Assembly (NCBI RefSeq): GCF_009914755.1
Contig: NC_060936.1
Strand: one strand, 5' to 3'
DNA length: 64,000 bases
DNA from: the human T2T-CHM13v2.0 reference genome, Homo sapiens
The position numbers and the translations under genes were made by a program. Below, one piece after another: positions 3,091-46,334 of the stretch. Position 1 is the first letter of the stretch. Every line of letters begins with the position of its first letter. A model generated the notes under the pieces. It did not search any database. It had not been told where the DNA came from and saw nothing but the letters and a program-made list of their open reading frames with translations.

Positions 3091-3200
3091 AGAAGGAAAA
3101 CAAGAACATCAGCACATACTTCCCACTGTCTTCATCACATTTCCAAAGTTGTTTCAACTTCCACAATAATCAATCATTACTTTTACTGGGGAAAGTATAG

Positions 3201-3203
<3 letters not shown>

Positions 3204-3259
<56 letters not shown>
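3204..3259. repeat. (GT)n microsatellite, ~28 units
   Basis: Uninterrupted GT run. Confidence 0.97.
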
Positions 3260-3262
<3 letters not shown>

Positions 3263-10179: not shown

Positions 10180-10740
10180 TTCCTTGACCTGGGCAGTTCC
10201 TGGGACCAAGGGGCAGCCCCTCGCAGGCCGGGTTTCGACCGCCCCAGGGCACCCACCGATCGCACTCACTTGGGCGTGTGGGCCTCGTCCACGCGGTGCC
10301 CCAGCTGGAACTCGTGGGATTTGCTCCGATGCAGCGCGGTGAATCCCGGGATCAAGTGTATCAGTTTTCGGGAGGAGGGCGGTGGGGTCCCCGGGGGCTT
10401 CAGCTTGTTCTTCTTCCTCATGGGCGGCGTGCCCGGCGGGGTCACGGTGGTGACGATGTTGGGGGTGCGCGGCGGGGTGCGGACCGCGTGCCGCTGCCGG
10501 GGCGATGGGGGCAGGGAACGGTGGCCCGACTCCAGTGGCGGGGGCGGGCACAAGCCCGGGTAGGCGTCCACGGTAAGCCTGTCCACGTGGGTGTACACAG
10601 GGGCCCCGGGAGTGGGGCTGGTGTGACAATAGTGCTGGACGCACTTGGACGGGACCCTGGGGCTCTGGGAGAGATGGGTGCGGATCCACGGGGTGGGCTC
10701 CGGGGGGCACACGGGATTGTTCTCCTTCCCCGTCTCTGTG
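10180..10740. promoter_or_regulatory. Intragenic CpG island overlapping the KSR2 exon
   Basis: Abruptly GC-rich and CpG-dense compared with CpG-depleted flanks; extends ~90 bp beyond the donor into the intron. Confidence 0.8.
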
Positions 10741-10783
10741 GTGGGCCACTGGATGGTCCAGTCTTGTTTGGAAAGGTTGCCTC
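10270..10783 (-). CDS. KSR2: KSR2 internal coding exon (514 bp, probably exon 4): proline-rich CA2 region
   Basis: Translation [30 protein letters not shown]...[71 protein letters not shown] matches human KSR2 as I recall it. Minus-strand acceptor cttctgttccaactcag|GAGGC (AG at 10785-10784, phase 1) and donor CCCAA|gtgagt (GT at 10269-10268, phase 2). Contains TP motifs and the RSKSHE 14-3-3-type motif conserved in KSR proteins. Exon number is from recall. Confidence 0.97.
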
Positions 10784-10839
10784 CTGAGTTGGAACAGAAG
10801 AGCAGAGACAATGGGTAAGCCATGAGAAAGCCAGGTGAG

Positions 10840-11255
10840 TTACACCATACACACCATTACATCATACACACATTACACCACGTGCCCATTACATCATGTG
10901 CATGTTACACTATATACCTGTTACATCGTATGCATGTTATCTCATATGCAAATTATATCTTATGCACATTATACCATGTGCCCATTACATCATATGCATG
11001 TTACACTATATACCTGTTACATCGTATGCATGTTATATCATATGCACATCATATCATATGCATGTTACACTATATATCTGTTATGTTGTATGCATGTTAT
11101 ATGCACATATCATATGCACATTACACCATATGCATGTCACATTATATGTGCATTACATCATATGCATGCTATTTCATATGCCCATTACCTCTTACAGACA
11201 TTCTATCAAATGCATGTTACATCATACCCACATTACATCATAAGTACATTTACAT
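10840..11255. repeat. Degenerate purine/pyrimidine-alternating tandem array (TATGCATGTTAC-type) with ~96-bp higher-order duplication
   Basis: Block cccattacatcatatgcatgttacactatatacctgttacatcgtatgcatgttat recurs at 96-bp spacing. Confidence 0.9.
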
Positions 11256-11842: not shown

Positions 11843-12140
<298 letters not shown>

Positions 12141-12142
12141 CC

Positions 12143-12586
12143 TTTTTTTTATTTTATTATTATTATACTTTAAGTTTTAGGGTACATGTGCACAATGTGC
12201 AGGTTAGTTACATATGCATACATGTGCCATGTTGGTGTGCTGCACTCATTAACTCGTCATTTAACATTAGGTATATCTCCTAATGCTATCCCTCCCCTCT
12301 CCCCCGACCCCACAACAGTCCCCAGAGTGTGATGTTCCCCTTCCTGTGTCCATGTGTTCTCATTGTTCAATTCCCACCTATGAGTGAGAACATGCAGTGT
12401 TTGGTTTTTTGTCCTTGCGATAGTTTACTGAGAATGATGATTTCCAATTTCATCCATGTCCCTACAAAGGACATGAACTCATCATTTTTTATGGCTGCAT
12501 AGTATTCCATGGTGTATATGTGCCACATTTTCTTAATCCAGTCTATCATTGTTGGACATTTGGGTTGGTTCCAAGTCTTTGCTATT
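12143..12586 (-). mobile_element. Young L1PA (L1PA2-4-like) 5'-truncated 3' end, tail-to-tail with the Alu
   Basis: ttatactttaagttttagggtacatgtgcacaatgtgcaggttagttac, very close to the young L1PA 3' UTR. Confidence 0.9.
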
Positions 12587-27385: not shown

Positions 27386-27649
27386 CTTTTTTTGAGATGA
27401 AGTCTCTCTCTGTTGTCCAAGCACCATCTCAGCTGACTGCAACCTCCACCTCCTGGCTCATGCCTTAGCCTCCCAAGTAGCTGGGATTACAGGTGTGAAC
27501 CACCATGCCCAGCTAATTTTTGTATTTTTAGTAGAGATGGGGTTTCACCACATTGGCCAGGCCGGTCTCAAACTCCTGACCTCAGGTGATCTGCCCGCCT
27601 CGGCCTCTCATAGTGCTGGGATTACAGGAGTGAGCTACTGCACCCGGCC
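27386..27649 (-). mobile_element. AluS with small deletions
   Basis: TSD gaaacaat(t/c)ctt. Confidence 0.88.
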
Positions 27650-28774
27650 GAAACAATCCTTGAACAGTCATAAATTAAAGCTGCCATGATGGATAACAGT
27701 ATTGGTATCATGCACCTTGAATTCAGGCAAGAAATTAAGTGGGAGACAACTCGCTATAGTCAAAATTCTATTCATGCATAGGGCTACCCTAGATGGATAG
27801 TCTTGAGAAATGAAGGCCTGGTGACCAGAAGAAAGGGTGGAAGGTCGTCCTTATCTTGATCCTGCCTCTTCTGGCTCTGCATCCTCTGAGAAACAGCTGT
27901 GCCTCCACCAGCTGGGAAGAATGGGCTCTCTCATGGGCCTCTGAGGGAGGGAGAAGGAGGTGAGAAGCTTAGGAGGCCCATCCAGCTCAGGCTGGCTCCC
28001 ACGCATGCTTGCACAAGAGAGTCCACACCAGGAAAGCCACATTAGAGAGGGATGACCTCTGAGACGCTCCTAATTCCAGAACCCTTTGTTGTTCTATTGC
28101 TCTGCCTCCCTTGAGTGACAGGCATTATATTAGTTTTATAACCTCTTGTGTTGGCAAATTCAAGAAAGCTAAAAGTAGCATTCGATGACCTTATGTGCTG
28201 CAAGGTGCCCTATTTTTATCTCCCAACAACTGACTTGGGGCGCAGGTTTTCCAAATCCCTTTGGCTTTCCCCTCCCTGTGCAGATTCAGTGGGGCCAGCA
28301 CCTGCCCCGGTTTCCCTCCCAATTTCCCTCTGCAAAGACAGTGCTTATGAAGCCTTCAGAGCCAGGTGTGCCAGGAGGTCAATTTGCTCAGGTTATCCAC
28401 ATAGTCTTGACCTAGAGGCAGAGAGAAATGTGGATACTTCTAAGAGAAAGGTGCTGTGTAAACGTCTATCAACCTTTTTAACTCCTCTTAACTAAGGCAG
28501 ACAACTGCATGGGCACCAGGGGGCTTTTCCAAGACATCTAGATTTAATACCTGCCAACATAACTTCTTGCCACAGCATGTAGAACTCAGCAGGGCCAGTG
28601 AGCTGGGTTTGAATCCCAGCTCCACTACTTACTAGCTGTGTGACTTGGGGTAAATTTCTTAACCTCTCTGAACTTCAGTTCATGCATCTAAAAAGGGAAT
28701 AATAAAAGTACCCTCTTCTTAGGGTGAACATGAAAAACCAAGCAAGCAGTGGGCCTGCTATCTTTGTTACTATT

Positions 28775-39381: not shown

Positions 39382-40011
39382 TGTGAGCCCAAATATCTGA
39401 GACAGGTCTCAACCAATTTAGAAAGTGTATTTTGCCAAGGTTAAGGACGTGCCTGTGACACAGCCTCAGGAGGTCCTGATGACATGTGCCCAAGGTGGTC
39501 AGGATACAGATTTTGCTTTTATGTATTTCAGGGAGGCAGGAGACATCAATCAGCATGTGTAAGAGGTACATTGGCTCAGTCCAGAAAGGTGGGACAACTA
39601 GAGGCAAGGGGCAGGTAGATGACAGACAAAAGGTTGCATTCTTTTGAGTTCTTGATCAGCCTTCCACTAAATACACAATTCAGTCTGGCTCCGTGAATCT
39701 GCATTTTTACCTAAACAATAGGGCAGAGGAAGCAATCAGATATGCATTTGTCTCAAGCAAGCAGAGGGATGACTTTCTGTCCCGCACCTGTGAATATCAG
39801 CTACCCATTTACATTGCCAGGGTGAAATTCAACAGAACTGTTTTAGGGGAAAGATCTTGTGGGCCACAAGGAACAAACTGTGAGAGAAGTATGTCGCTTT
39901 TTAATCTTTGTAGCTATCTTATTTTGGAATAAAATGGCAGGCAGGTTTGCCAGCTTGACTTTTGCCTTAGCTTAGTGCTTCTGGTAGCCCATGGTTTATT
40001 TTCCCTTCACG
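39382..40011 (-). mobile_element. MER4A-like ERV1 solo LTR
   Basis: Reverse-complement homology to the 20370-20819 LTR (cctcaggaggtcctgatgacatgtg); 4-bp TSD gagt. Confidence 0.88.
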
Positions 40012-41314
40012 GAGTCATCCTTGATAAATCTCCTTCCTCCCACCCCACAGTAAGACCCATCCACACTACCTCTGTGCACATTCCTGGAATCCATCTATTC
40101 TGTCCATCAGCACTGCTGTGACCCAGTCCCAAATACCCTCACCTCACACCTGGACAACTGCAGCAGCCTCCCAACTGGTCTCTCTGACTCCCCTCTAGCT
40201 CCTCTCTAACCCATTTGACTAGAACAATGGATGTTTTGCAATCATGTATCAGACCTTCACTCCCCTCCTATCAACCTTAATGGCTCCCTATTCCCTTAGA
40301 ATCCAAATTCTTGCTAATTGCCTACAATTCTCTCCCTAATCAGAGCATAGCCCACATCTCTCCCACCTCACCCACCTCTACCCTTCCCCAACTCTCATCT
40401 CCTGCCACACTGATCTTCCTTCTTTCCTTTATGCCCACCAGCTCACCCCAGGGCCTTGTCACTTGTTGCTTCCTATCTGCAAAGCTCTTCCTCCAGATCC
40501 TTCAGGAGCTTGCTTCCTGTCACACCGATCCTTAGCCTACATGTCACCTTCTCAAAGAAGCCTCCCTTGACCTCCCAGTCACTCCCGATTATATCAAAGA
40601 TGTATTCTTTTTCACAGCCCTGAGTCATTCTCTGATATTTTCCAGTTTATTCATTTACTATCTGTCTCCCCCAACTGGAATATAAGCTTCTTAAAAGCAG
40701 AAACTTTGTCTATCTTGTTTATTGCCTAGAATGGAGTTTGTTACATTATAATGGATCCTCGAATATTTACTGAGTGAATGAATGAATGGCAAAAAAATAA
40801 AAATAAAAATAGCTCAGTGTGATTGGAACAACCAGTCTGTGGAAATGACACTGAGGGGTTTTCAGCCAAGGAGTGACATGATGAGAGGTGCTTTCTAGAA
40901 AGGTCACTCTGGCTGCTGGAGGAGGTGGGAGGGGAGCAGAGGCATATACCAACTTGAAGGACATTTGAATGGGACATGGTGATGAGTGAGACACACAGGA
41001 GGCTGAGGAACGGAGGCATCAGCGATCAAAAACTCCACTGCAGTTCATCCTACACTGCCCAGATCCATGGATTGTGTTGCAACCGATATCAACATTTTAA
41101 TTCACCAACTAAACGTACTCTGTGTATTTTAGAACCAGAAACTTCTCTTCTACTTCTCTCCCCATATTTCTCTCTACTCCCAAAAAACAGATTGCACAGC
41201 ACTATGCCCACAATGAGTGCCCACTGCATAAATACATGGAGCTTCTAGAAGGTGAAAGATCTGACATTCCCTCTGTAAGATGCAAAGGGAGCAATGATAA
41301 AGCATTGCGGTTTT

Positions 41315-41636
41315 GGCCAAGCGCAGTGGCTCATGCCTGTAATCCCAGCACTTTGAGAGGCTGAGGCAGGTAGATCGCTTGAGCTCAGGAGTTTTGAGAC
41401 TAGCCCGGACAACATGGTGAGACACAGTCTCTACAAAAAAAAAAATAAATAAAAATTATCTGGGCATGGTGGTGTGTGCCTGTCCTGTAGTCCAGCTACT
41501 CGAGGGGGCTGAGGCAGGAGGATTGCTTAAGCCCGGGAGGTCGAGGCTGCAGTGAGCTGAGATCGTGCCATTGCACTCCAGCCTGGTTGACAGAGTGAGA
41601 CACTGTCTTTAAAAAAAAAAAGAAGAAGAAGAAGAA
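41315..41636 (+). mobile_element. AluJ with a short (GAA)n tail
   Basis: gaggtcgaggctgcagtgag diagnostic. Confidence 0.9.
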
Positions 41637-42119
41637 TTGCAGTTCTGGAGTCAGACAGACCTGCTTACGCTACATGCAACACCTGGGCACGCTGGTTAGC
41701 TTTTGGGCCTCAACATCTTCATCTGTGAAACAGGGATATTGGGAGCCTCTATCTCAGAGGATTCTCGCAAAATTACAAGGGATCCTACATGCAAAGTGTT
41801 CAGCACTGTGCCAGGCACAGAGTAAGCCCACAAGGGCTATTATTAGGAACCTCAGTCACTTAAATCAAATCAGCAGCCTCTCCCAGCCCCGCGGCCCCTG
41901 CCCTCTGCCTCTGTCCCTGTGTCTGAATCATCCTACTCCCTTTCCCTGTCTTGACTGCTGGTTGGCTGCTATTTCTCCAGACCTGGGATATGTCATAATG
42001 TGATTGATGCACCCAATCATAAAAATAACCAGTTATTTTGATGTGGGGTGCGTCATCCCTAAAAATAACTGAGAACTGTGGAAGTGAAGACACCAAGGCA
42101 AATATTGGTTTGCATTGTG

Positions 42120-44038
42120 TGCACACACACCAACATGCACACACACACAACATGCAGACCCTCACACCAACATGCACACACCCTCACACCAACATGCACA
42201 CACGCTCACACCAACGTGCACACACAACATGCACACACTCTCACACCAACATGCACGCACACACACCAACAGTACGCACTCTCACATCAACATGCACACA
42301 CGCTCACATCAACATGCACACACACCAACAGGCACACACTCTCACACCAACATGCACACTCACACCAACGTGCACACAAACATGCACACACACACTAACA
42401 TGCATATACCAATATGCACGCACACCAACATGTACACACACCAATGTGCACACATACACACCAACATGCACACACCCTCACACCAACATGCACACACACC
42501 AACCTGCACACACCCTCACACCAACATGCACACACGCCAACATGCAACATACCATACACACAACATGCACACACCCTCACACCAACATGCACACATACAC
42601 ACCAGCATGCACACACCCTCACACCAACATGCACACACACCACTGTGCACCCATACCAACATGCACACATACACACCAAAATGCACACACACCAACATGC
42701 ACACTCAAACCAACATGCACACATACACCAACATGCACACTCACATCAACATGCACACACCCTTACACCAATATGCACACATACACCAACGTGCACTCAC
42801 GCCAACATGCACACTCACACCAACATGCACACACCTTTACACCAATATGCACACATACACCAACATGCACACTCACACCAACATGCACACTTATCCCATG
42901 CACATATACACCAATATGCACACATACAACATGCACACACCAACATGCACACATACAACATGCACACACCATGCACACTCACACCAGCATGCACTCATAC
43001 CATGCACATATACACCAACATGCACACATGCAACATGCACACACCAACATGCACACATGCAACATGCACACACCAACATGCACACTCACACCAACATGCA
43101 CACACTCATACCATGCGCATATACACCAATATGCACACATACAACATGCACACACCAACATGCACACTCACACCAACATGCACACACACCATGCACACAT
43201 ACACCAACATGCGCACACACCAACATGCACACACACCATGCACACATACACCAACATGCACACACACCAACATGCACACTCACACCAACATGCACACACC
43301 AACATGCACACTCGTACCAACATGCACACATACACCAACATGCACACTCACACCAACATGCACACTCACACCAACATGCACACTCACACCAACATGCACA
43401 CACCCCAACATGCACACATACACCAACATGCGCACACACCAACATGCACACACACCATGCACACATACACCAACATGCACACACACCAACATGCACACTC
43501 ACACCAACATGCACACATACACCAACATGCACACACACCAACATGCACTCACACACCAACATGCACACACACCAACATGCACTCACACCAACATGCACAC
43601 TCACACCAACAGGCACACACACCAACATGCACACTCACACCAACATGCACACTCACACCAACATGCACACACATGCACATACAACATGCACACTCACACC
43701 AACATGCACACACACCAACATGCACACTCACACCAACATGCACACTCACACCAACATGCACACACAACATGCACACACACCAACATGCACACACAACATG
43801 CACACTCAACCAACATGCACACACACCAACATGCACACATACATCAACATGCACACTCACACCAACATGCACACATACACCATACACACACACACCAATA
43901 TGCACACTCAAAACACTCACACCAATATGCACACACTCATACCAACAGGCACACACACACCAACATGCACACATACACACCAATATGCACACACTTATAC
44001 CAACATGCATACACACACCCAACGTGCACACACACACA
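42120..44038. repeat. VNTR, ~1.9 kb, 14-22-bp unit ccaacatgcacac(t/a)caca
   Basis: Direct inspection; reads GUGUGUGCAUGUUGG on the KSR2-transcribed strand. Confidence 0.96.
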
Positions 44039-44891
44039 GAATAGTCACTTTAAATAGGACGGGGAAATATACCAACTTTAATCAAGGGGGAGAAAAGCCT
44101 CGCTACGACCCATCACTCTTAGCCAGTTGATGATAGTGACAGCTGATTAGAGGGCTCTTGTCCAGAGGCGGCCCAGCAAGGGACAGAAAGAGACAGCCTA
44201 ACTACAGTATCAGAGAACACTGCTAATGGTTTTCCCCAAGCTGCAGCAAAGTGATTGACTTCCAGCCCCAGTAACTTCCAGGACTTCATTTGCCACAAGA
44301 GTGCCCCTAATTCTAAGTTGGTGTCATGCTTCTTTCCTTTAGCAGAGAAATGCCCCCAAGACATATCATTCTGACTTGCACGGCAAAGGACACCGACTCA
44401 TCATTCTTCCAGCCTCTGGAAACGGGTCCCTTGCTGTTGACAGTGCCTCGGAAGAAATTCATTCTTTATTTCTGGGACCATTTTCTTCTTCCCTGTACAC
44501 TTCAGGGATGATGGGCACAAGGTTTGAAAAACCTCCAGACTTTTTAGAAATAGACGAAATCCAACTTGTCAATGGTGTCACCTTCCTGGCGACATCATCT
44601 TTGCCTCCTCCTGGCAGATACTACCTCAGCCTTCTGGAAGATGATGCCACCTTTTCACACGGAGCTCAGCATGCCAAGTGGAACAGACTGGAATGCCAGA
44701 AGAGCACAAGATTCAGAGAAATGGCTCAGGATTGTCAGGACACCAAGACCCTCTGGAAAGGACCCAGAATCTTCACAGATGTCCCCAGCTCCCAGAGAAT
44801 GACATTTGCCTCCAAGATGCAGGAAAGAGGTTGCGACAGCTTCCTGGCAAGAATTCAGAGTGAGTGAAGGTTGGAGACAGAAGCCTGTGGT

Positions 44892-45495
44892 TTTTATTTA
44901 TTTATTGAGACAGGGTCTTGCTCTGTTGCCCAGGCTGGAATGCAGTGGTACAATCATAGCTTACTGCAGCCTTGAACTCTCAGGCTCAAGCAATCCTCCC
45001 GCCTCAACCTCCCGAGTAGGTGAGGCTACAGGTGTATGCCATCAATTTTTTGTAGAGACAGGGTCTCACTATGTTACCCAGACTGGTCTCAAACTCCTGG
45101 GCTCAAGTGATCCTCCTGCCTCAGCCTCCCAAAGCGCCAGGACTACAGACATGAGCCGCCACATCTGGCCAAAGCCTGTGTTGTTGTTATTGTTGTTGTT
45201 TTGAGACAGGGTCTCTCACTCTGTCACCCAGGCTGAAGTGCAGTGGTATGAACACAGCTCATTGCAGCCTTAACCATCTGGGCTCAAATGATCCTCCAAC
45301 CTCGGACTCCTGTGTAGCTGGGACCACAGGTATGTGCCACCATGCCTAGCTAATTTTTTAATTTTTTTGTAGAGATGGGGGAGTCTCACTAGCTTCCCCA
45401 TGCTGGCCTTGGAGCTCCTGGACTCAAGCAGTCCTCCTGCCACGGCTTCCAAGGTGCTGGGATTAAAGGCGGAAGCCACCATGCCCAGCTGGCCT
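44892..45495 (-). mobile_element. Two tandem AluJ elements
   Basis: First has TSD aagcctgtg; second has a (TTG)n tail. Confidence 0.88.
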
Positions 45496-46334
45496 GCATT
45501 TAAATACAAGCATTGTCTCTTACTAGTTAGGCCTCTGTGAGCAAGTGCATGTGTGAGCCTCAGTCTCCTAGTGTGTAAATTGGGGAGAATAATACCTGCC
45601 TAGTAAGGTGATGGTGAGGACTAAACGAAATGATCTCAGGAAATTACATCCCAGGCATAAGGTAAAAAAACAAGTTGTCATTACCATCAGCATCACGTTA
45701 GACAAACGTGGAAGGGATATAAGCTGCCCTATAAATTTCCAAACCCATGCTACATTCGTGGAAGCTCCCAGTGATATTTTACACCCAAAGGAATCTCATC
45801 GTGTTGGGCGAAGACTGCGGACTTCACAGTCAAACAGGTCTAAGTTCAAATCCCAGCCCTGCCCTTACCAGGCATGTACCCTTGATTTCCCCAAGGCTCA
45901 GTTTCCTCAGCTGTGAAATGAATGTGGAGTTTCCAGAGTAGAGGGGATGATAAACGTGCCAGGAAGGGCTCACAAGATGCAACTTACCTCTGCTTCCCCT
46001 TAACAAGGTGGCTTAAGGAAAACAAGAGACACTATGGCTCAATTAACCCCGTAGATCTCCAGCTCAACCCATATGTTGATAGAACCCCCATGGCATTCAG
46101 TCCCAGACCTGCTGCCCAGCCTCCAAAATGCCCAGCAACTCCACAGCCAAGGAGGCCAGCCCAAAGTTTCTTAATTCCCCTGATCACTCATTTAACAAGC
46201 ATTCACCAAGTGCCTACTGAGTGCCGAGCTTTGAATTGGAGCCTGGGAACACAACAAAGAACAAAGCCAACCCAGCCCCTGATCCCCAGAGCTCACCATG
46301 CGGATGGGGAAGAGATCATCACACAAAGACTGGG

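What the first reader, a model, noticed from the sequence alone, without database searches (positions are those of the whole stretch)
42120..44038. 1.9 kb VNTR presenting ~85-90 RBFOX UGCAUG motifs in the KSR2 pre-mRNA
Seen: the plus-strand core CATGCA occurs about 87 times by my hand count, so the KSR2 transcript reads GUGUGUGCAUGUUGG repeatedly; the polarity is correct only for the KSR2 strand. Established: UGCAUG is the high-affinity RBFOX1/2/3 site, and flanking UG runs bind TDP-43/CELF. Inference: an unusually dense RBFOX landing pad in a neuronal gene's long intron, which could act as a distal splicing regulator, a co-transcriptional sponge or a nucleator of RBFOX/LASR assemblies.
Basis: partly seen in the sequence, partly recalled or inferred. 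Interest (0 to 1): 0.7.

Follow-up and report, generated by a model that had tools for sequence, protein, structure and literature searches.

The report
Giant RBFOX-motif repeat in KSR2 intron
A 1.9-kb repeat deep inside an intron of the neuronal gene KSR2 really does carry 87 binding motifs for the RBFOX splicing factors; it is already listed in a published catalogue of such clusters, where it ties for largest, but nothing yet shows that it does anything.

Summary
Window 42120-44038 holds 87 CATGCA on the + strand, which read as 87 UGCAUG (90 GCAUG, 79 UGCAUGU) in KSR2 sense, and none in the other polarity.

The array is a locus-specific GT-rich minisatellite. It has 102 copies of a 13-nt core, GUGUGCAUGUUGG, separated by short GU spacers, and lies 31.3 kb upstream of the only exon in the window. 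Each unit matches the published Rbfox/LASR module, a GU-rich element abutting GCAUG.

The locus is not new. It is row 6674 of S2 Table in PMC12435732, with 95 sites, tied with EPHA8 for the largest of 19,977 human clusters. It is never discussed in that paper's text. The same paper reports that adding motifs beyond about 4 does not increase the effect.

The class is common and symmetric between chromosome strands. Mouse Ksr2 has no comparable array. The motif is not conserved better than its flanks. hg38 and CHM13 have the same array length, so "VNTR" is unproven.

My reading is an incidental, probably RBFOX/LASR-bound by-product of repeat expansion, with at most a local effect. A genome-wide sponge is unlikely.

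One new lead: a second array 123-435 nt upstream of the exon's 3' splice site is the best predicted pairing partner of the distal array in the 64 kb.

The parts
42120..44038 (-). Distal GT-rich minisatellite in KSR2 sense. It has 102 copies of the core GUGUGCAUGUUGG with spacers of 0-22 nt (mostly 3-9). It carries 87 UGCAUG, 90 GCAUG and 23 GUGAGU, and hnRNP M-type GU pentamers cover 74% of it.
   Evidence: The paired-unit pattern occurs only at this locus in the whole T2T genome (24 forward, 0 reverse).
41332..44674 (-). The same cluster delimited by the published rule (at least 4 (T)GCATG in 500 bp, extended by sites less than 500 bp away). It holds 95 GCATG and equals hg38 chr12:117792071-117795414, S2 Table row 6674 of PMC12435732.
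   Evidence: The offset to hg38 is identical on both sides of the array.
10839..11255 (-). Exon-proximal tandem array (periods 16/32/64/96). In KSR2 sense it carries 7 AACAUGCA (6 of them UAACAUGCA(C/U)A), 123-435 nt upstream of the 3' splice site. These are the reverse complement of the distal unit and form a predicted 12-13 bp duplex per copy.
   Evidence: It is the best predicted partner of the distal array. Its unit is locus-specific.
10270..10783 (-). KSR2 coding exon of 514 nt, the only exon in the window. It lies 31,337 nt downstream (in transcript sense) of the distal array.
   Evidence: Hub annotation given with the finding. Sequence read, which shows a polypyrimidine tract and AG at 10784.

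Best explanation
The feature is a locus-specific, GT-rich minisatellite deep in a KSR2 intron of at least 53 kb. It most likely grew by slippage or unequal exchange of one roughly 18-nt unit. That unit happened to contain UGCAUGU next to GU runs.

Because the unit was amplified about 100 times, nascent KSR2 RNA displays 87 high-affinity RBFOX sites. Each site abuts hnRNP M-type GU elements, which is the published Rbfox/LASR 'multipart module'.

- Inferred, not shown: in RBFOX-expressing neurons the intron RNA is coated by RBFOX/LASR while it exists.
- Shown: the array is an extreme member, tied for largest in hg38, of the already catalogued class of deep-intronic (U)GCAUG clusters.
- My judgement: the motif load is mainly a by-product of repeat expansion. 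Any consequence is local to KSR2 pre-mRNA processing and does not scale with motif number. It does not act as a cell-wide RBFOX sponge.
For: Anatomy:
- 102 cores with variable GU spacers.
- TRF period 18, 72% matches.
- The unit is unique to this locus.

Fit to the known class:
- S2 Table row: KSR2, 95 sites, distal_intron, '-'.
- 745 hnRNP M pentamer hits cover 74% of the array.
- GU-rich motifs abut protected GCAUG within 1-10 nt, more often upstream (PMC11874969 passages).

By-product reading:
- Tight TGCATG triples are frequent and strand-symmetric genome-wide: 6334 and 6011, against 333 and 339 for the reversed control.
- The large clusters in the catalogue mostly lie near chromosome ends.
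- Mouse Ksr2 has 16 clusters, the largest with 15 sites.
- Motif positions are conserved at 96.4% and the rest of the core at 94.4% (22/612 against 40/714 mismatches; Fisher p = 0.09).
Against: - The array ties for first of 19,977 catalogued clusters.
- It contributes 55 of the 3480 long-range motif triples in the whole T2T genome.
- Its length is identical in hg38 and CHM13, whereas the co-leader EPHA8 has 95 sites in hg38 but 158-166 in CHM13. This could reflect constraint.
- The exon-proximal array is the best predicted pairing partner of the distal array in the 64 kb. That is what a functional RNA bridge would look like.
- Against binding: predicted ensemble pairing hides the motifs. Mean unpaired probability is 0.164 (n=87), against 0.249 for the 22 other sense motifs and 0.431 for 146 random hexamers. 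However, the fold is not better than shuffles (z = -1.26) and the centroid is nearly open.
- There is no CLIP, expression or population data for this locus.
Confidence: 0.6

Rival explanations
1. The array is a functional distal Rbfox/LASR splicing element. It is brought to the 3' splice site of the 514-nt KSR2 exon by base pairing with the exon-proximal array (an RNA bridge that loops out about 31 kb). There the RBFOX/LASR assembly modulates exon use or intron removal.
For: - Precedent: Ntrk2 clusters about 25 kb from the regulated exon are needed for RbFox1 regulation. The authors invoke RNA looping.
- Intermolecular duplex scan: the proximal-array windows rank 1, 4, 5, 8 and 15 of 1026 windows, at -114.3 kcal/mol against a mean of -57.7 +/- 11.7.
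- They beat their own dinucleotide shuffles: 0 of 150 and 1 of 150 shuffles reach the observed value.
- Co-fold ddG: they rank 1 and 2 of 513 non-overlapping windows, at -40.2 and -39.0 against -11.6 +/- 6.4.
- Each of 7 proximal copies forms a 12-13 bp duplex of -13 to -22 kcal/mol, against -8.0 for self-pairing of the distal core.
- Both arrays are locus-specific.
Against: - The evidence is purely in silico and post hoc.
- Only 64 kb of a larger intron was scanned.
- The pairing overlaps the RBFOX motif itself, so paired copies cannot bind RBFOX.
- An L1 3' end fragment (-36.5) and a (CA)n tract (-35.0) score close behind.
- The exon is 514 nt, which is not a multiple of 3, and I have no evidence that it is alternative.
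- No conservation data are available.
- Published data show no dose effect of motif number.
Confidence: 0.15
2. The array acts as a sponge or condensate nucleator. The intron RNA sequesters enough RBFOX/LASR to change RBFOX availability elsewhere, or forms a nuclear body with effects in trans, as PNCTR does for PTBP1.
For: - Valency is extreme: 87 sites in 1.9 kb.
- Multivalent tandem-repeat RNAs that sequester an RBP exist (PMC6224606 passages).
Against: - It is a single intron present in two gene copies, and it exists only until the intron is removed. Set against thousands of other GCAUG clusters (19,977 catalogued), the share of RBFOX it could hold is small. This is my inference.
- PNCTR carries hundreds of PTBP1 motifs and sequesters a substantial fraction of PTBP1 (passage); I saw nothing comparable for this intron. 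That PNCTR accumulates as a stable transcript is recalled.
- The PNCTR paper's main text does not mention RBFOX, GCAUG or KSR2 (0 occurrences each).
Confidence: 0.03
3. The relevant ligands are not RBFOX. Instead they are GU-binding factors or U1 snRNP: hnRNP M, CELF or TDP-43 on GU runs, and 23 GUGAGU decoy 5' splice sites. These would suppress cryptic splicing or premature 3' end formation in a very long intron.
For: - hnRNP M pentamers cover 74% of the array, and there are 23 GUGAGU hexamers.
- One preprint reports hnRNP M suppressing cryptic splicing through deep-intronic binding. I saw only its abstract in a search listing.
Against: - UG runs are short: 64 of 2 repeats, 49 of 3, 21 of 4, 3 of 5 and 2 of 6. 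The requirement of about (UG)6 for strong TDP-43 binding is recalled, not tested.
- Such GU-rich tracts are ubiquitous, so nothing singles this one out except its UGCAUG load.
- The array contains no AAUAAA or AUUAAA that would need masking.
Confidence: 0.07
4. The array matters, if at all, at the DNA level. Alternating purine-pyrimidine tracts could form Z-DNA or other non-B structures. These could affect elongation, chromatin or recombination, regardless of the RNA motifs.
For: - 1046 of 1919 bases lie in alternating Pu/Py runs of 12 or more (longest 23).
- That CA/TG tracts can adopt Z-DNA under negative supercoiling is established knowledge (recalled).
Against: - Nothing in my calls tests this.
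- The runs are short and are interrupted by CCAAC in every unit.
- RefSeq lists no functional element in the window (hub annotation).
Confidence: 0.04

Closest known systems
Deep-intronic (U)GCAUG clusters embedded in LASR-binding sequence (Tomassoni-Ardori et al. 2025, PMC12435732; Ntrk2 clusters 1 and 2)
   Same: Sense-strand GCAUG cluster in a distal intron of a neuronal gene, tens of kb from the nearest exon, embedded in GU-rich/(TG)n sequence. This locus is itself row 6674 of their S2 Table.
   Different: - The tested Ntrk2 clusters have few motifs, and the authors say 4-6 suffice. This one has 95 by their count and is a regular tandem array.
- It has no eCLIP or deletion data.
- It is not named in the paper's main text (0 occurrences).
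Rbfox1/LASR multipart RNA modules (Peyda et al. 2025, PMC11874969)
   Same: The unit is GU-rich sequence directly abutting UGCAUG, with GUUGG downstream. This is the arrangement enriched around nuclease-protected GCAUG (passages).
   Different: - Those modules are single or few and are mostly near regulated exons.
- Here one module is repeated about 100 times, 31 kb from an exon.
- I read passages of that paper only.
EPHA8 intronic TG-rich array (hg38 chr1:22577728-22579966; T2T locus L009 1559-4565)
   Same: Tied at 95 sites in the hg38 catalogue. It is also a TG-rich degenerate tandem array, in sense orientation, in a neuronal gene.
   Different: - Its spacing is irregular (8-28 nt) and its unit is different.
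- CHM13 carries 158 TGCATG (166 GCATG), so it differs in length between assemblies and outranks KSR2 in T2T.
PNCTR and other short-tandem-repeat-enriched RNAs (Yap et al. 2018, PMC6224606)
   Same: A genetically normal tandem repeat encodes a high-density array of sites for one RNA-binding protein.
   Different: - PNCTR sequesters a substantial fraction of PTBP1 and assembles a nuclear compartment (passage). That it is a stable Pol I transcript comes from a section heading.
- This array is a transient Pol II intron, with no evidence of accumulation.
Rbfox 'RNA bridges' (Lovci et al. 2013; recalled, and referred to in the discussion of PMC12435732)
   Same: A distal RBFOX site, plus long-range complementarity to sequence beside an exon.
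   Different: - Published bridges are conserved stems next to, not overlapping, the RBFOX site.
- Here the complementarity is array-to-array, overlaps the motif, and is only predicted.

Membership tests
Deep-intronic (T)GCATG cluster, as defined in PMC12435732 | At least 4 (T)GCATG within 500 bp on the gene's sense strand | tested here: met
   93 GCATG in 41673-44329, or 95 with the paper's extension rule. Up to 32 per 500 bp in T2T. The paper lists 95 sites and a maximum of 29.
Deep-intronic (T)GCATG cluster, as defined in PMC12435732 | Located in a distal intron, more than 500 bp from exons | tested here: met
   31,337 nt from the only exon in the window (hub annotation). The S2 Table calls it 'distal_intron'.
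Deep-intronic (T)GCATG cluster, as defined in PMC12435732 | Embedded in hnRNP M-type GU-rich or (TG/CA) repeat sequence | tested here: met
   745 hits of the paper's 14 pentamers cover 74% of the array.
Deep-intronic (T)GCATG cluster, as defined in PMC12435732 | Rbfox CLIP peak on the cluster, and loss of regulation when it is deleted | not testable with these tools
   No CLIP table is held. The paper states that no human-brain CLIP exists. Its pipeline removes reads that map to repeat elements first.
VNTR (variable number tandem repeat) | Head-to-tail copies of a unit of 7 nt or more | tested here: met
   TRF period 18, 108.5 copies.
VNTR (variable number tandem repeat) | Copy number differs between haplotypes | tested here: inconclusive
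   hg38 and T2T-CHM13 have the same span and the same 95 sites. Only two haplotypes were compared. KSR2 is absent from the 3 supplementary files of PMC8327921 that could be searched; one file could not be searched.
Multivalent RBP-scaffold RNA (PNCTR type) | High-density tandem array of one RBP's motif | tested here: met
   45 UGCAUG per kb.
Multivalent RBP-scaffold RNA (PNCTR type) | An accumulating transcript that sequesters a substantial fraction of the protein | not testable with these tools
   No expression or imaging data. It is intronic, so presumably short-lived (inference).
Rbfox RNA bridge | Complementarity between the distal site region and exon-proximal intron | tested here: met
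   In silico only. Ranks 1 and 2 of 513 windows by co-fold ddG. z = -3.4 and -3.1 against shuffles. 12-13 bp per copy.
Rbfox RNA bridge | Conservation or covariation of the stem, and an experimental requirement for it | not testable with these tools
   No primate genomes or RNA-RNA contact data are on hand.
TDP-43 UG-repeat site | Long uninterrupted (UG)n. The threshold of about 6 repeats is recalled. | tested here: not met
   139 UG runs: 64 of 2 repeats, 49 of 3, 21 of 4, 3 of 5 and 2 of 6.

The most novel reading that the evidence does not exclude
Two locus-specific tandem arrays in one KSR2 intron form a multi-register RNA 'zipper'. The exon-proximal array (7 UAACAUGCAYA-type copies, 123-435 nt upstream of the 3' splice site) pairs with a few of the 102 distal units and loops out about 31 kb. 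This parks the largest RBFOX/LASR platform catalogued in human genes next to the 514-nt coding exon. The platform then tunes exon use or intron removal of this neuronal gene in a primate-specific way. KSR2's link to energy balance is recalled.
Probability: 0.1. Interest if true: 0.75.

Novelty: already known. Interest (0 to 1): 0.35.

Why it matters
If the array is bound and active, it would be the extreme test case for whether motif valency matters in Rbfox/LASR assembly on nascent RNA. It sits in a neuronal gene. Its paired-unit sequence is unique in the genome, so it can be followed by CLIP and FISH despite being repetitive.

As things stand it mainly shows two things. First, tandem-repeat expansion can create very large RBP-motif arrays without evidence of selection. 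Second, standard CLIP pipelines that discard repeat-mapping reads may never have looked at such arrays.

The predicted pairing with the exon-proximal array is the only element I did not find in print. The searches were made, which cover main texts only. It gives a cheap, falsifiable experiment.

Tried and rejected
- Full genome-wide ranking in T2T. I obtained totals only. The resulting bound is that at most about 63 arrays could contribute as much as KSR2 (3480/55).
- Strand bias relative to transcription could not be tested, because I had no gene table for other loci. Only chromosome-strand symmetry was tested.
- Rfam over 40000-46000 gave 0 matches.
- A stable RNA structure is rejected. z = -1.26, 18 of 200 shuffles fold as well, and the centroid is nearly open.
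- Motif-specific purifying selection within the array is not significant (p = 0.09). Power is low, and concerted evolution confounds the test.
- Literature, main texts only:
  - KSR2 + VNTR gave 1 paper, unrelated.
  - KSR2 + RBFOX gave 25 papers, 15 listed, none about this locus by title. I opened one, which only cites SF3B1/KSR2 work.
  - KSR2 + tandem repeat + intron gave 18 papers, none relevant by title.
  - RBFOX/VNTR/GCAUG turned up nothing on RBFOX-motif VNTRs.
- The PNAS paper on human-specific repeat expansions is not held.
- The supplements of Course et al. 2021 have no KSR2 in the 3 files searched; one file could not be searched.
- Searching the S2 Table by numeric phrase ('cut 1' and similar) returned 0. 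I paged all 102 long rows instead.
- Simple k-mer complementarity put a (CA)n tract ahead of the proximal array. The energy-based scans reversed that order.
Full report
**1. The observation**

The sequence at 42120-44038 is a degenerate tandem array, C/A-rich on the + strand (C 794, A 774, T 216, G 135). TRF calls 42122-44037 with period 18, 108.5 copies, 72% matches and 17% indels.

- CATGCA occurs exactly 87 times on the + strand, and TGCATG 0 times.
- The KSR2 transcript (- strand) therefore reads 87 UGCAUG, 90 GCAUG and 79 UGCAUGU.
- The commonest spacing between motifs is 18 nt (28 of 86 gaps), then 16, 13, 22 and 14.
- The whole window has 133 motifs, against 61.2 +/- 8.6 in shuffles (0 of 100 shuffles reach 133).
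- Dinucleotide-preserving shuffles of the array alone give 42.2 +/- 4.4 (maximum 54 of 1000), against 87 observed. Of the 135 + strand G, 90 sit inside CATGC.

**2. Anatomy**

- Anchoring on the sense 13-mer GUGUGCAUGUUGG finds 102 non-overlapping copies with up to 3 mismatches: 54 exact, 37 with one mismatch, 8 with two and 3 with three. Spacers are mostly 3-9 nt; UGUGA occurs 17 times, UGU 16 and UGUAU 10.
- The 14 hnRNP M pentamers used in PMC12435732 hit 745 times and cover 74% of the array. There are 23 GUGAGU and no AAUAAA or AUUAAA.
- UG runs are short: 64 of 2 repeats, 49 of 3, 21 of 4, 3 of 5 and 2 of 6.
- A pattern of two cores separated by 0-8 nt occurs 24 times in the 3.1-Gb T2T genome. 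All 24 are here, on one strand, with 0 for the control. This is not a dispersed family.
- The array lies 31,337 nt upstream, in transcript sense, of the only exon in the window (10270-10783; hub annotation). No Rfam family matches 40000-46000.

**3. RNA accessibility**

- A 300-nt piece folds no better than shuffles: -79.2 against -75.8 +/- 2.7 kcal/mol, z = -1.26, and 18 of 200 shuffles fold as well. The centroid is almost open.
- In the ensemble the motifs are nevertheless mostly paired. Mean unpaired probability is 0.164 (n=87), against 0.249 for the 22 other sense UGCAUG in the window and 0.431 for 146 random hexamers.
- I read this as promiscuous weak self-pairing through the CAUG palindrome and G-U wobbles, not as a defined structure. 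It counts mildly against free access.

**4. How unusual is it?**

In the T2T genome, tight triples (TGCATG, 1-30 nt, TGCATG, 1-30 nt, TGCATG) number 6334 forward and 6011 reverse. The reversed-pattern control gives 333 and 339. That control contains CpG, so it is a poor null. The KSR2 array supplies 69 of these triples.

Long-range triples with gaps of 255-285 nt number 1886 and 1594. KSR2 supplies 55 and the EPHA8 locus 114. At most about 63 arrays could therefore match KSR2 on this measure. Only totals are available, because just the first 100 places are listed. Such arrays are thus common and symmetric between chromosome strands, but few are this large.

**5. It is already catalogued**

From PMC12435732 (Tomassoni-Ardori et al., PLoS Genet 2025) I read the abstract, sections 8, 9, 13 (part 1), 20 and 21, several passages, and rows of S1 and S2 Tables. 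The paper defines clusters as at least 4 (T)GCATG in 500 bp. It lists 19,977 in human genes and 21,005 in mouse, and shows that two Ntrk2 clusters about 25 kb from an exon are needed for RbFox1 regulation.

- S2 Table row 6674 reads: chr12:117792071-117795414, 95 sites, KSR2, '-', maximum 29 per 500 bp, distal_intron.
- Applying their rule to T2T gives 41332-44674 with 95 GCATG.
- The offset to hg38 is 12,739/12,740 both for this cluster and for the next one downstream (45341-45750, against 117796080-117796490). This confirms the identity and shows the array has equal length in hg38 and CHM13.
- KSR2 is not mentioned in the paper's main text.

I paged all 102 rows whose Type cell exceeded 400 characters. 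That set includes every cluster with about 24 or more intronic sites, and every cluster of any type with 95 or more. Six rows are chr22 duplicates, leaving 96 unique.

| Gene | Sites |
|---|---|
| KSR2 | 95 |
| EPHA8 | 95 |
| TOGARAM2 | 81 |
| LINC01043 | 81 |
| GMEB2 | 77 |
| ABCC5 | 76 |
| CEP112 | 75 |
| LOC124900798 | 73 |
| AGRN | 68 |
| DOCK1 | 61 |
| PCBP3 | 60 |

- Three rows have a higher local density than KSR2's 29: CBFA2T3 (33), LOC105377727 (30) and C1QTNF1 (30).
- Most of these large clusters lie near chromosome ends.
- In CHM13 the EPHA8 array has 158 TGCATG and 166 GCATG over about 3.0 kb. The hg38 table gives it 95 sites in 2.24 kb, and that is its only large row. EPHA8 therefore varies between assemblies and outranks KSR2 in T2T.

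**6. Evidence bearing on function**

For:
- Each unit has the layout that Rbfox1/LASR protects on nascent RNA. GU-rich motifs abut GCAUG within 1-10 nt, more often upstream (PMC11874969, passages only).

Against, or neutral:
- The same catalogue paper reports that raising the motif threshold to 6 or 8 does not raise the isoform change. [quoted passage not shown]
- Mouse Ksr2 has 16 clusters, the largest with 15 sites.
- UGCAUG positions are conserved at 96.4%, against 94.4% for the other seven core positions (p = 0.09).
- There is no CLIP for human brain, and the paper's pipeline removes reads that map to repeat elements.
- The PNCTR paper, the model for repeat-RNA sponges, does not mention RBFOX, GCAUG or KSR2 (passages).

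**7. A second array and a possible RNA bridge (new here, in silico only)**

The nine + strand TGCATG at 10899-11216 belong to a tandem array at 10839-11255 with periods 16/32/64/96. This array ends about 56 nt from the exon's 3' splice site.

- In KSR2 sense it reads ..GUAACAUGCAUAUGAU... It carries no UGCAUG but 7 AACAUGCA, which is the reverse complement of the distal unit, at 123-435 nt from the splice site.
- Each copy forms a 12-13 bp duplex with the distal unit, at -13.2 to -22.2 kcal/mol. Distal core self-pairing gives -8.0.
- I scanned a 200-nt distal probe against 1026 sense windows of 120 nt. The proximal windows rank 1, 4, 5, 8 and 15. The best is -114.3, against a mean of -57.7 +/- 11.7. 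C-rich exon windows rank 2, 3 and 6.
- Against their own dinucleotide shuffles, the two best proximal windows have z = -3.4 (0 of 150 shuffles reach them) and -3.1 (1 of 150). The exon window is unspecific (z = -1.7, 9 of 150).
- Co-fold ddG allows for intramolecular folding. On that measure the proximal windows rank 1 and 2 of 513 non-overlapping windows, at -40.2 and -39.0 against -11.6 +/- 6.4. Next come an L1 3' end fragment at 12121-12240 (-36.5) and a (CA)n tract at 3121-3240 (-35.0).
- A plain k-mer count had put the (CA)n tract first.
- The proximal unit is also locus-specific: 5 of the 7 genome matches with up to 2 mismatches lie here.

Caveats: the hypothesis was formed after I had seen the data, only 64 kb was scanned, the pairing overlaps the RBFOX motif, and no conservation data exist.

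**8. Verdict**

The array is a real, sense-oriented, top-ranked RBFOX/LASR-type motif array.
- Both the kind and this very locus are already in print, the locus as an unremarked table row.
- The weight of evidence favours a by-product of minisatellite growth that is probably bound but has at most a local effect (confidence 0.6).
- A functional distal element acting through an RNA bridge is the most interesting live alternative (0.10-0.15).
- A cell-wide sponge is unlikely (0.03).

Items recalled and not tested here: Lovci 2013 RNA bridges, the TDP-43 (UG)6 threshold, Z-DNA formation by CA/TG tracts, and KSR2's role in energy balance.

Noticed in passing
window 10839-11255: A locus-specific tandem array (periods 16/32/64/96) lies just upstream of the 3' splice site of the KSR2 exon. 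In KSR2 sense it carries CAUGCA/UGCAUA but no UGCAUG. It is the best predicted pairing partner of the distal array in the window.
   Followed up: yes
window 12121-12240 (- strand): What looks like an L1 3' end fragment (a recalled resemblance, no repeat library on hand) contains CACACCAACATG. This is the same 12-mer as the + strand unit of the distal array. It is a possible hint about the seed of the minisatellite, or chance. It also ranks third as a pairing partner.
   Followed up: no
window about 3200-3260 (- strand): A long, uninterrupted (CA)n microsatellite in KSR2 sense lies in the intron downstream of the exon. It is complementary to GU runs and ranks fourth by co-fold ddG.
   Followed up: partly
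L009:1559-4565 (T2T contig C1, EPHA8 intron): This TG-rich array has 158 TGCATG and 166 GCATG in CHM13, against 95 sites in 2.24 kb in the hg38 table. There is a large length difference between assemblies, unlike at KSR2.
   Followed up: partly
window 27459-27777 (- strand): Four sense GCATG lie within 319 nt in T2T, which meets the published cluster rule. No matching KSR2 row exists in S2 Table. The cause is either an assembly difference or a difference in how the rule was applied.
   Followed up: no
S2 Table of PMC12435732 (rows 108-469 and 581-942): Six large chr22 clusters appear twice in the table. The published total of 19,977 therefore seems to include duplicated chr22 rows.
   Followed up: no
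S2 Table of PMC12435732, row 15344: RBFOX3 itself carries a 41-site sense cluster (maximum 28 per 500 bp) in a distal intron. PTPRN2 carries eight clusters of 24 or more sites.
   Followed up: no
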